Notes: generated by a model from the sequence alone, not told the origin. Shown: positions 36,175 to 39,100, numbered from the whole stretch's first letter. The stretch: 63,821 nt of DNA, filler included, from Kipferlia bialata (GCA_003568945.1; 8 parts of 7 records of this genome joined end to end with filler, not necessarily neighbours in it); one strand, 5' to 3'. Numbers and translations: made by a program.

Positions 36175-39100
36175 ATGAGCTGGGGAGCTGCACCAACAGG
36201 TGAGGAGATATTTTGTGTTTCATCTACTATTCAGTTCTCGGAGTGTCTTTTGGAGTTGTTCCCCGCAAGTCCCCCACTTTTGTGTCGAATCTTACTCCTT
36301 ACCTCAGCAGGAGGTTTTGGTTTTGGTGGTGCTCCGGCTGCTGCCGCACCAGCTGCCACTAGCTGGGGTACTCCCGCTGCCGCTGCACCTGCTGCGCCAG
36401 CGTTTGGAGCTGCTCCTGCCGCTACTGGATGGGGAGCCGCCGCCGCCGCACCCGCCGCCACTGGATGGGGTGCCGCTGCCAAGCCAGCCGCTCCTGCTGC
36501 CCCTGCCTGGGGAGCGGCTCCAGCTGCTGCCGCTCCAGCTACCACAGCCTGGGGGGCTAAGCCAGCTGCACCCGCCGCTACTGGATGGGGAGCCGCTGCT
36601 GCTGCTCCTGCCGCAACTACTTCTGCCTGGGGTGCTAAGCCTGCCGCCCCAGCAACAAGTGCATGGGGTGCTACCCCCGCTGCTGCTCCTGCTACCACAG
36701 GTATTCGACTTCCAGCCTTCTCTCATCCTTCTTTCGTCCTTTCCTATTGTCTCTCTTACCTTCAGGCTGGGGTGCCACAGCCGCTGCTCCTGCTACCACT
36801 ACCCCTGCCTGGGGTGCTACTCCAGCTGCCGCACCTGCCACTTCAGGTGTGTTGGATTTGTGAGGGATATATATGTGTATATGTGCTTACATGTATGCGC
36901 TTGCTATGTATTCCTAGACTCATCACAGCCTGGGGTGCCAAGCCTGCAGCTGCCGCCGCACCTGCATGGGGTGCTGCTGCCCCTGCTGCTGCTGCTCCTG
37001 CCACCACAGGTATGTAGTGTTATTGTGCAGTGTATTCCAACATATACCCGATGCTGTGTAGGTGTGGCTGACTCTCAGGATGGGGTGCTACCGCTGCTGC
37101 TCCAGCTACCACTGCTCCTGCCTGGGGAGCCACCACTACCGCTGCTGCACCTGCCACTTCAGGTATGTGATGGAAAGACAGTGGGCCATTTTGATCCTGA
37201 CTCTCTGTGCATTGTGTGTTAGCAATTTTGCTCTTGTGTTTGTATAATGTGTGTTTCAACCCCTTCTGATTCTTAGCATGGGGCGCCAAGCCTGCTGCTA
37301 CCGCTGCCCCAGCCTGGGGTGCTACTGCCGCTGCTCCAGCTGCTGCCCCAGCTACCACAGGTAGGATTGACTATGGTGTAGCACATATATATGCACACAG
37401 ACATCAGTCTGAGTAATTGTCTGTCTTCTTACCCCCAGGTTGGGGAGCCACTGCAGCCGCCCCGGCTGCAACAGGTACATCAGTAGTTTCTCTGTCTTCC
37501 CTAGATTTGTTGGGGTATATATCTGTCTAACCCCTAGCCTGGGGTGCCAAGCCTGCTGCCCCTGCCGCTGCTCCTGCCTGGGGTGCTGCTCCTGCCGCTG
37601 CCCCTGCCGCCACAGGTAGTGGTATTGACATCTGACCTGCATATATACACTCATTCACTTCCCATATCTATTTGCACTGTATTCTCACCACCAGCCTGGG
37701 GTGCTAAGCCTGCAGCTGCTGCCCCCGCCTGGGGAGCTGCCCCCGCTGCCGCTGCCGCTCCTGCCTGGGGTGCTGCTGCCGCCGCACCCGCCGCTGCCCC
37801 TCCCCAGCCCCGCACCACTGTTGTCAACGTGGTGCCTACGGCCACCGCTGACTCCGGGTACCAGAAGCCCACCATCGCCGCCTCTCTGCTCTCTCCCTTC
37901 AAGGCCAGCACCCTGACCTCCGCCCAGATTGCCGAGACCCTCTCCAACCGTGAGAGGCAGAGTGCCGCCTCCCTCCTCCTCTCCCTCTCCTCCGCCTCCC
38001 CCGCCATGCGTGCCAGTGCCGTCGGCTCTAGCAGCCTGGCCGCCACCCAGGTATCTGTGGCCCAGAGCATGCAGTCCCCCCTGTCTAGGTCACTCCTCGT
38101 GGCCGGAAACAGGTCCCCAGCCACTCCCCTCAGTGCCAAGCCATCCTTCTCCATCAAGGTACTATATATATATATATATATACATGTATGTATTTCCACA
38201 CATCTCTCTGTCTCTACCCTCTCCCTCTTACCGTGTAGGTGATGCAGGGCAACGACTTTGAGGACGATGAGGAGGCAGAGCAGGAGAGAGAGAGGGCCTC
38301 TCTGCGCCCCGAGTCCCTCCGCACCCGCACCTCTACCCTCACGTCCTCCACACCCACTGTCGTGTCTGCCTCCCCCGCAGTCCCAGCCTCCCCAGAGGCC
38401 CTGCGCTCACCAGTCAACGTCTCCCAGCTCAGAACCACAGAGGTGGAGACAGAGAGGACAATCAGCTCTGCCGCCCCCAGGTATGTGTGGCGTAGTACCC
38501 AGACATAGTCACTCTCACTTTGTATGTGTCTGTAACCTCTAGGCTGGACAACCCCGATATGTACACGGTGCCTGCTCTCTCCGACCTCGAGGTCATGTCT
38601 GACGATGAGCTCGCAGCCGTCAGAGGATTCACAGTGGGACACACAGGTGCGTCAGTTGCATTGTACTTATATGCAAAGAAACCTGATCTGTATAGTGTTC
38701 GAGTTGTTGCGTCTTCTAACCCCAGCCTTTGGCCGTGTTGAGTTCCTGGGCCTGACCGATGTGCGTGGCCTTGACCTTGGTGCCCTGGTGGCCTTTGAGC
38801 AGAGGAGTCTTGAGGTGTACCCAGCAGGCACAGCCAAGCCACCTGTCGGAAGTGCGTAATTATTCTGCAAATACACACACACATATATATACTTCATTCT
38901 TGTGTCTCTCCTCCACCCCTCTGACCCCAGGTGGTCTGAACCGCCCCGCCATTGTCACCCTGTGCAACGTGTTTGTGCTTGGCAAGGACGGGAACCCCTC
39001 CAAGAAGCCTGCCCACATTGAGAAGTACACCACCCGCGTGGTCTCTGCCACCAAGAAGATGGGCGCTTCCTTCATCTCCTTCGACCCAGAGCTCGGCGAC

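What the first reader, a model, noticed from the sequence alone, without database searches (positions are those of the whole stretch)
36175..37800. Nup98 with WG repeats instead of FG/GLFG repeats
Seen: across 9 exons I count about 23 WG motifs (AWGA, GWGA, AWGAKPAA) against only 3 FG, in Ala/Pro/Thr spacers with essentially no Asn/Gln and no recognisable GLEBS. Established: Nup98 FG/GLFG repeats form the NPC permeability barrier; WG/GW repeats are separately known as Argonaute hooks. Inference: a Trp-based permeability barrier with co-adapted transport receptors, or a pore-tethered AGO-binding platform.
Basis: partly seen in the sequence, partly recalled or inferred. Interest (0 to 1): 0.82.

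Follow-up and report, generated by a model that had tools for sequence, protein, structure and literature searches.

The report
Tryptophan nucleoporin with viral-style frameshift signal
A free-living relative of Giardia has a nuclear-pore gene whose repeat motifs use tryptophan in place of phenylalanine, and whose two halves lie in different reading frames joined by a slippery sequence and a predicted hairpin, so ribosomes likely slip back one base, as on viral RNAs, to make the second pore protein.

Summary
This is the Kipferlia bialata Nup98-Nup96 gene (KIPB_006057). Its first 322 residues hold 23 WG and 3 FG, with no N/Q/D/E and no GLEBS. One spliced contig joins the WG exons to the autopeptidase. 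Of 77 full-length-type relatives, none is WG-dominated (most WG: 8, against 19 FG); no metamonad could be identified among them. Spacing and low charge match Nup98 FG domains, not Argonaute hooks. Other contigs in the same runs carry similar spacers with FG, so a wholly Trp-based barrier is unlikely.

The larger surprise lies outside the finding. The Nup98 frame stops 36 codons after the HF|S site, and Nup96 continues in the -1 frame. The annotated 77-nt 'intron' that bridges them is GC-rich, lacks the branch point found in 17 of 17 other introns, and is unspliced in the RNA-derived contig. It holds an in-frame U_UUU_UUC directly before the UAG, a 6-nt spacer and the mRNA's most stable predicted hairpin. 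Programmed -1 frameshifting likely sets the Nup98:Nup96 ratio (about 0.65); it is untested and seen in one isolate only. The scan earlier noted a Trp module in a fungal Nup42 on other DNA.

The parts
36175..37790 (+). WG repeat domain (residues 1-~322) on exons 36175-36199, 36308-36700, 36766-36846, 36929-37009, 37079-37162, 37277-37360, 37439-37474, 37538-37615 and the start of 37695-38158
   Evidence: 23 WG / 3 FG; introns 2-5 and 8, and a joint skipping 6+7, are spliced in X2; introns 2-8 all split the codon just before a WG
37439..37474 (+). 36-nt in-frame exon (one WG unit), skipped in the RNA-derived contig, included in the NCBI model
   Evidence: joint 37358->37536 skips 177 nt, and record lengths agree; P0001 includes it
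37791..38480 (+). Ser/Ala-rich linker, predicted disordered (rest of exon 9, and exon 38239-38480)
   Evidence: spliced into X2 record 8; no Pfam hit
38543..39142 (+). Nup98 autopeptidase domain (peptidase S59) on exons 38543-38646, 38726-38851 and 38931 onward
   Evidence: PF04096 E 7.8e-37; PDB Nup98/Nup145/Nup116 chains, best E 4.4e-26
39119..39127 (+). HF|S autocleavage motif
   Evidence: sequence; aligns with the HFS of solved Nup98
39226..39232 (+). Slippery heptamer U_UUU_UUC in the correct frame
   Evidence: the only X_XXY_YYZ (Y=A/U, Z not G) in 4,382 nt of spliced coding span
39233..39235 (+). UAG ending the Nup98 frame, 36 codons after the cleavage site
   Evidence: present without indel in DNA contig X1 and spliced contig X2
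39239..39286 (+). Predicted GC-rich hairpin, 6 nt after the heptamer
   Evidence: -32.5 kcal/mol, lowest of 4,327 55-nt windows of the mRNA; z -2.4 for 68 nt
39222..39298 (+). Segment annotated as intron 13 in KIPB_006057; not intron-like and unspliced in X2
   Evidence: GC 0.66, no branch point, worst acceptor score; no joint
39226..41882 (+). Nup96-like reading frame in the -1 frame (exon to 39901, then 39962-40396, 40455-40576, 40653-40742, 40805-40905, 40982-41882)
   Evidence: five introns spliced in X2 record 9; frame open from 39226; ESM Atlas PF12110 clusters at 0.93; profile from 54 relatives 39.6 bits, best of 30 shuffles -1.0; no Pfam PF12110 hit

Best explanation
This is the Kipferlia bialata Nup98-Nup96 gene: its repeat domain uses WG where relatives use FG and likely still serves the pore's permeability barrier, and Nup96 is likely reached by a programmed -1 ribosomal frameshift just after the autopeptidase. 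Shown: the 23 WG motifs, splicing of the repeat exons to the autopeptidase, the stop 36 codons after HF|S, Nup96 in the -1 frame, and no splicing or indel at the junction in the consensus RNA contig. Inferred, part 1 (about 0.65): most ribosomes stop at the UAG and make Nup98 plus a 36-residue tail. A fraction pause at the hairpin, slip at U_UUU_UUC and make the roughly 1,460-1,470-residue precursor. Autocleavage gives the same Nup98 from both products and Nup96 only from the second, so the shift rate would set an excess of Nup98 over Nup96, the job alternative splicing does in human and fission yeast. Inferred, part 2 (about 0.75): the WG unit spread by duplication of a 12-14-residue repeat, and Trp is kept as the cohesive aromatic sticker in a short, Leu-free, Ala-rich domain. 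It would work beside ordinary FG nucleoporins in a mixed barrier.
For: Junction: the heptamer is the only canonical one in the 4,382-nt spliced span and sits in frame directly before the stop. Of 73 canonical heptamers in the window (both strands) it has the strongest downstream fold, -32.5 against -21.2 for the next, and is 1 of 3 followed directly by a stop. The 6-nt spacer lies within the 5-9 nt described for -1 sites (PMC5009743, passage). The annotated intron has GC 0.66 (17 other introns 0.34-0.47; exons 0.59-0.76), no YTNAY branch point (17 of 17 others have one 6-9 nt from the end) and an acceptor score of -8.1 (others -2.7 to 16.4). X2 record 8 is spliced at the upstream introns it crosses but runs 38931-39539 with 0 gaps. 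No other short intron with a branch point joins the frames; the 4 joining pairs are 257-638 nt. WG domain: 8.3 motifs per 100 residues (66 relatives' FG domains: median 8.8), D/E 0%, K/R 2.2%, aromatic 8.3%, in line with one motif per 11-12 residues and very low charge (PMC4283134 passages; 10.1101/2022.10.14.512266 passages). The nearest ESM clusters are nucleoporin FG regions (0.80-0.84, leads only). TGG is the same in 23 of 23 units while neighbouring codons vary at silent sites.
Against: There is no direct evidence of frameshifting, and no relative's junction was found to test conservation: one search gave 2 distant loci, one with an ordinary continuous frame and one ending at the domain; one search gave none. 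Contigs drop minor isoforms, so low-level splicing of the 77-nt segment is not excluded. The segment has GT-AG ends, a typical length and a donor score in range (4.6; 2 of 17 lower), and the genome's gene models were made with transcriptome hints (PMC5874029 passage). X1 and X2 are one sample, and X1 may be the source of the window. The hairpin's lead over the best window elsewhere is small (-32.5 against -31.7), and its z-score depends on the window (-2.1 to -3.5). No contig bridges the repeat at 39540-39620. A stop followed by five introns could trigger decay (general knowledge). The -1 frameshift once proposed for Giardiavirus is disputed (PMC8230311 passages). For WG: YG phases exclude native transport receptors, so WG may too. 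The domain is low in FILVMW (8.6%; relatives' minimum 13.3%) and may not be cohesive.
Confidence: 0.55

Rival explanations
1. Nup96 comes from a weak, mostly retained intron (39222-39298, as annotated): retention gives Nup98 alone, rare splicing gives the precursor, and the hairpin may damp splicing.
For: GT-AG ends, 77 nt, donor score in range, restores the frame and reproduces P0001 exactly. Alternative splicing does this job in S. pombe and human (PMC4483485 passages). Contigs hide minor forms.
Against: No branch point, exon-like GC, worst acceptor score of 18; no joint in X2 at min_share 1. It does not explain an in-frame slippery heptamer, a 6-nt spacer and an open -1 frame. In S. pombe the polarity is the reverse: the unspliced form gives the precursor.
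Confidence: 0.2
2. Nup96 is made from its own transcript, or by reinitiation at ATG 39514, with no frameshift.
For: No contig bridges 39540-39620. There is an in-frame Met at 39514. Separately expressed Nup98 and Nup96 support growth in S. pombe.
Against: The DNA contig breaks at the same repeat, so the gap is an assembly effect. The upstream RNA contig runs 300 nt past the stop. The -1 frame is open for 96 codons before that Met, and an out-of-frame ATG at 39314 lies in between.
Confidence: 0.1
3. The frame is restored by polymerase slippage on the six T residues, or the break is an allele or culture mutation.
For: A run of six T at 39226-39231; one isolate only.
Against: No indel in DNA or RNA contigs. 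A downstream hairpin at ribosome spacing is not expected for either cause. The Nup96 frame is intact over five introns.
Confidence: 0.05
4. The WG array is an Argonaute hook that tethers silencing complexes at the pore.
For: 23 WG motifs, 6 of them as GWG. W-to-F changes abolish Argonaute binding in known hooks (PMC2910046 passage). An unchecked scan note describes a GW module in a fungal Nup42.
Against: Known hooks are rich in Gly and Ser, with Asp, Glu and Asn. This domain has G+S 13%, D/E/N/Q 0% and Ala 51%. The WG motifs replace FG in place and at FG spacing instead of being added. No Argonaute-hook cluster is among the ESM rows shown. Whether this genome has an Argonaute was not tested.
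Confidence: 0.1
5. The whole Kipferlia barrier is Trp-based, with co-adapted receptors.
For: Nup98 is the main barrier component elsewhere, and receptor pockets are selective for the aromatic residue.
Against: At least one other sequence in X1 (depth 384) and X2 (depth 296) has the same Ala/Pro spacer with GGFGGFG-type motifs. Its gene identity and organism were not established. This Nup98 keeps 3 FG at its N-terminus.
Confidence: 0.1

Closest known systems
Nup98-Nup96 precursor (human NUP98, S. pombe nup189, yeast Nup145; peptidase S59)
   Same: Low-charge N-terminal repeat domain, autopeptidase with HFS, downstream Nup96, and a short 'Nup98 plus tail' product beside the long precursor.
   Different: WG instead of FG/GLFG; no GLEBS; a short repeat domain (314 aa; relatives' median 513). 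The two products appear to be chosen at translation, not by splicing.
Non-FG Nup98 repeats: Tetrahymena MicNup98A/B NIFN repeats
   Same: A Nup98 whose dominant motif is not FG (PMC5450191 passages). Mastigella P0013 with SLFP-type repeats is another case seen here.
   Different: Those keep Phe and change its neighbours; here the aromatic residue itself is replaced by Trp, which Nup98 FG domains are described as strongly avoiding.
Viral and retroelement -1 programmed frameshift signals (gag-pol type; PEG10, PNMA3/5)
   Same: In-frame X_XXY_YYZ heptamer, 5-9 nt spacer, stable 3' structure, long ORF in the -1 frame, fixed product ratio.
   Different: It lies in a non-mobile, housekeeping nuclear gene. 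For vertebrates, all described -1 cases are of viral origin (10.1101/2024.08.30.610563 passage; PMC5009743 passage). That no firm case exists in other eukaryotes' core genes is my recall, not a tool result.
WG/GW Argonaute hooks (GW182/TNRC6, NRPE1, SPT5-like)
   Same: Repeated WG in a low-complexity region.
   Different: Hooks are Gly/Ser-rich with Asp, Glu and Asn; this domain is Ala/Pro/Thr-rich with none of those polar residues.

Membership tests
Nup98-Nup96 orthologue (peptidase S59) | Autopeptidase domain PF04096 | tested here: met
   127 bits against a cut-off of 28.4; PDB hits
Nup98-Nup96 orthologue (peptidase S59) | HFS cleavage motif | tested here: met
   39119-39127; aligned to solved Nup98; cleavage itself not tested
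Nup98-Nup96 orthologue (peptidase S59) | Nup96 encoded downstream | tested here: met
   ESM 0.93 to PF12110 clusters; own profile 39.6 bits; BLASTP E 9e-7 to P0002; the Pfam model itself does not hit; it lies in the -1 frame
FG/GLFG repeat class of Nup98 domains | FG or GLFG as the dominant motif | tested here: not met
   23 WG, 3 FG, 0 GLFG
FG/GLFG repeat class of Nup98 domains | About one motif per 11-12 residues, very low charge | tested here: met
   8.3 per 100 residues; D/E 0%; K/R 2.2%
FG/GLFG repeat class of Nup98 domains | GLEBS (usual, not universal) | tested here: not met
   8 of 77 relatives also lack it
FG/GLFG repeat class of Nup98 domains | Selective phase formation, receptor binding, pore localisation | not testable with these tools
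   needs experiments
WG/GW Argonaute hook | Repeated WG/GW motifs | tested here: met
WG/GW Argonaute hook | Gly/Ser-rich context with Asp, Glu, Asn | tested here: not met
   G+S 13%, D/E/N/Q 0% against the description in PMC2910046; the published scoring matrix was not run
WG/GW Argonaute hook | Trp-dependent Argonaute binding; Argonaute present in the genome | not tested
   no genome held
-1 programmed ribosomal frameshift signal | In-frame X_XXY_YYZ heptamer | tested here: met
   U_UUU_UUC at 39226
-1 programmed ribosomal frameshift signal | 5-9 nt spacer, then a stable structure | tested here: met
   6 nt; predicted -32.5 kcal/mol; prediction only
-1 programmed ribosomal frameshift signal | Functional ORF open in the -1 frame | tested here: met
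-1 programmed ribosomal frameshift signal | Site stays in the mature mRNA and is not bypassed by splicing | tested here: inconclusive
   retained in the consensus contig; minor forms are invisible in contigs
-1 programmed ribosomal frameshift signal | Conservation in relatives | tested here: inconclusive
   no close relative found
-1 programmed ribosomal frameshift signal | Transframe protein demonstrated | not testable with these tools
   needs a reporter, ribosome profiling or mass spectrometry
Kipferlia spliceosomal intron (annotated intron 13) | GT-AG ends, 58-114 nt | tested here: met
   77 nt
Kipferlia spliceosomal intron (annotated intron 13) | YTNAY branch point 6-9 nt from the 3' end; GC below 0.5 | tested here: not met
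   17 of 17 other introns of this gene have both; this one has neither
Kipferlia spliceosomal intron (annotated intron 13) | Removed from the mRNA | tested here: not met
   retained in X2 record 8; consensus only

The most novel reading that the evidence does not exclude
Kipferlia reaches the scaffold nucleoporin Nup96 only through a viral-style programmed -1 ribosomal frameshift in a core nuclear gene, hidden from annotation as a false intron, and builds the Nup98 part of its pore barrier from tryptophan rather than phenylalanine stickers.
Probability: 0.5. Interest if true: 0.92.

Novelty: new variant of a known kind. Interest (0 to 1): 0.83.

Why it matters
Two open questions become testable in one gene. 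First, whether a eukaryote uses classical -1 frameshifting in a gene that is not derived from a virus: in vertebrates all described cases are of viral origin, and others were shown to be artefacts. Here an ordinary structural protein would depend on it, with a clear purpose, the Nup98:Nup96 ratio. Gene predictors would hide further cases as odd GC-rich introns, which suggests a simple genome-wide screen. Second, why pore barriers use Phe: Nup98 domains are described as avoiding Trp, and YG phases exclude transport receptors. A natural WG domain, with its host's receptors, tests whether the Phe-pocket fit is necessary or historical.

Tried and rejected
Assembly error at the T run: rejected, since DNA and spliced contigs both match with 0 gaps, though both come from one sample. 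Codon reassignment as the source of Trp: rejected. No whole genome is held, so other nucleoporins and Argonaute could not be tallied. A homologue search with WG exon 2 returned only P0001 and two unrelated bacterial proteins at E>1. Autopeptidase searches: 2 proteins, 8, and 2,948 hits of which only the best 150 were shown. Of these, 29 were looked up for names; none was named as a metamonad and most were unnamed, so lineage prevalence is open. My first tally (0 of 62 with 3 or more WG) missed proteins whose cleavage site did not fit my pattern. The redone tally found P0132 with 8 WG (77 relatives: 62 with 0 WG, 12 with 1, 2 with 2, 1 with 8). A tree of the autopeptidase gave no supported close relative (the first tree run did not finish). 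Metagenome scan: 2 distant loci. Viral scan: none. No run was on record as RNA; X2 is treated as mRNA-derived because its contigs lack introns. X3 and X4 do not cover the junction. Paper searches with no hit: Nup98+Nup96+ribosomal frameshift; Nup98-96+frameshifting; Giardia+Nup98+nucleoporins+Trichomonas+FG repeats; Kipferlia+frameshifting; programmed ribosomal frameshifting+cellular genes+PEG10+PLEKHM2. Autoproteolytic+nucleoporin+frameshifting gave one influenza review, listing only. Nup98+WG repeats gave 2 papers whose passages use WG only as Argonaute-type repeats or as a comparison group. Passages of two pore-evolution papers held nothing on metamonad Nup98. Giardiavirus was dropped as a precedent for -1 shifting. 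No structure or complex prediction was run.

Full report
Identity and gene model. The region is a 19-exon gene on the + strand from ATG 36175 to 41882. A search with the last autopeptidase exon returned one identical protein, KIPB_006057 of Kipferlia bialata (P0001, 1,446 aa). My exon model reproduces it exactly when a 77-nt intron at 39222-39298 is assumed. Kipferlia is a free-living, intron-rich fornicate whose gene models were predicted with AUGUSTUS and transcriptome hints (PMC5874029, passages). The autopeptidase scores 127 bits on PF04096 and matches solved Nup98, Nup145 and Nup116 chains, HFS included.

The observation. Residues 1-322 hold 23 WG and 3 FG, no GLFG, and no N, Q, D, E or R; 10,000 shuffles gave at most 9 WG. 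GLEBS is absent by Pfam and by a profile that finds it in 69 of 77 long relatives (33 seeds came from the same set). Trp is not a coding artefact: conserved W and F columns of the autopeptidase are kept. A 2,381-nt contig of run X2 lacks the introns and joins exon 2 through to 39539, so the WG exons and the autopeptidase are on one spliced molecule; it skips one 36-nt WG exon and does not reach exon 1. Introns 2-8 all split the codon just before a WG. TGG is the same in 23 of 23 units while flanking codons differ at silent sites, and the introns show little mutual similarity (mean score 13.7 against 12.7 shuffled; best pair 23, above the shuffled 99th percentile of 19.4). I infer old repeat duplication with selection to keep Trp.

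How unusual is it? Of 77 relatives with more than 450 residues before the autopeptidase, 66 have 10 or more FG; 62 have no WG, 14 have one or two, and one unnamed protein (P0132, no GLEBS) has 8 WG with 19 FG. None is WG-dominated. Non-FG Nup98 repeats are known (Tetrahymena NIFN; PMC5450191, passages) and another appeared here (Mastigella, SLFP-type), but both keep Phe. Nup98 FG domains are described as strongly depleted of Trp (10.1101/2022.10.14.512266, passages; that text has no GLWG variant).

What the WG domain most likely does. Motif density (8.3 per 100), charge and aromatic content fall in the range of 66 relatives' FG domains. FILVMW content (8.6%) is below all of them and Ala is far above. 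A language-model search ranks nucleoporin FG clusters first, at lead-level scores. Argonaute hooks are Gly/Ser-rich with acidic residues and Asn (PMC2910046, passages), which this domain is not. Other contigs in X1 and X2 align to the spacers but continue with GGFGGFG-type motifs (tables 5c and 7); they are probably other nucleoporins, though I could not identify them. The best reading is an FG-equivalent sticker in a mixed barrier. Whether receptors bind WG is open, since YG phases exclude them.

The frame break. Read without the assumed intron, the Nup98 frame ends at TAG 39233-39235, 36 codons after HF|S. The -1 frame is open from 39226 and runs through five spliced introns to 41882. It encodes Nup96: ESM clusters of PF12110 at 0.93, 39.6 bits on a profile from 54 relatives against -1.0 for the best of 30 shuffles, and BLASTP E 9e-7 to a choanoflagellate Nup96; the Pfam model itself does not hit. 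Both the DNA contig and the spliced contig cross 38935-39530 with no joint, gap or difference. The annotated intron is an outlier among the gene's 18: GC 0.66 against 0.34-0.47, no branch point against 17 of 17, acceptor score -8.1 against -2.7 to 16.4, and the most stable fold per base; its donor and length are ordinary.

The signal. Directly before the stop, in the right frame, is U_UUU_UUC, the only canonical slippery heptamer in 4,382 nt of spliced coding span. Six bases later a hairpin begins (39239-39286), the most stable of 4,327 55-nt windows, -32.5 kcal/mol, with the best window elsewhere at -31.7; z is -2.1 to -3.5 by window and -2.4. Among 73 heptamers in the whole window the next best downstream fold is -21.2. 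A 5-9 nt spacer is the described norm (PMC5009743, passages). The place was fixed beforehand by the frame break, so this is not the best hit of a free search. A -1 shift gives a 1,460-residue precursor, and no shift a 688-residue Nup98 with tail, in the exon-skipped form.

Mechanism. Both products would be cleaved at HF|S to the same Nup98; only the shifted one gives Nup96. That is the logic of the two splice forms in human and S. pombe, where extra Nup98 is made from the same gene (PMC4483485, passages), and Nup98 is estimated at about 48 copies per pore (PMC4283134, passages; the lower Nup96 copy number is recalled). I put frameshifting at 0.65, rare splicing of the odd intron at 0.2, a separate transcript or reinitiation at 0.1, and polymerase slippage or a strain allele at 0.05. 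The first two could coexist.

Limits. One isolate (X1 and X2 share a sample, and X1 may be the window's source); contigs show consensus only; no relative's junction was found; no protein evidence. The -1 model for Giardiavirus is disputed (PMC8230311, passages), so it gives no support. Absence from print rests on ten searches of an open-access library. I read passages only and no supplements; the genome paper's supplements or hint files could bear on intron 13. For vertebrates, known -1 cases are stated to be of viral origin (10.1101/2024.08.30.610563, passages). The scan's notes held no match for a Nup98-Nup96 frameshift and nothing on this genome; one note describes a GW module in a fungal Nup42 (unchecked).

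Verdict. The WG domain alone would score about 0.65. The frameshift candidate raises the overall interest to 0.83. It is a new variant of a known kind.

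Noticed in passing
P0013 (Mastigella eilhardi, EukProt), residues 1-450: Full Nup98-Nup96 with GLEBS whose repeats are SLFP/SMFP-type; 1 FG in 662 residues. Another non-FG Nup98.
   Followed up: partly
P0132 (unnamed), residues 1-300: Autopeptidase-bearing, GLEBS-less protein with mixed repeats, 8 WG and 19 FG in a Gly-rich context; a possible intermediate state.
   Followed up: partly
P0048 (unnamed), residues 1-400: Nup98-like protein with 0 FG and many FP-type repeats.
   Followed up: no
contigs of X1 and X2 aligning to window 36373-37756: Other sequences with the same Ala/Pro/Lys spacer but GGFGGFG-type motifs, at depth 384 (X1) and 296 (X2); probably other Kipferlia FG nucleoporins.
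   Followed up: partly
window 37439-37474: In-frame one-repeat exon skipped in the RNA-derived contig; repeat number may vary by splicing.
   Followed up: partly
window 41105: C>T in both X1 and X2 contigs against the window; silent (Thr) by my reading of the frame.
   Followed up: no
window 36306-36310: Tandem acceptor (CAGCAG) at intron 1; either choice keeps the frame.
   Followed up: no
window 42269-42850, - strand: L24e-family ORF (PF01246), convergent with the Nup98 gene; its C-terminal extension suggests the ribosome-biogenesis paralogue Rlp24 (recalled).
   Followed up: partly
window ~34600-36070, - strand: Intron-rich gene starting head-to-head about 100 nt from the Nup98 ATG; resembles a syntaxin by eye (recalled); the one ORF tested had no Pfam hit.
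   Followed up: partly
window 47076-49016, + strand: Class I/II aminotransferase gene (PF00155).
   Followed up: partly
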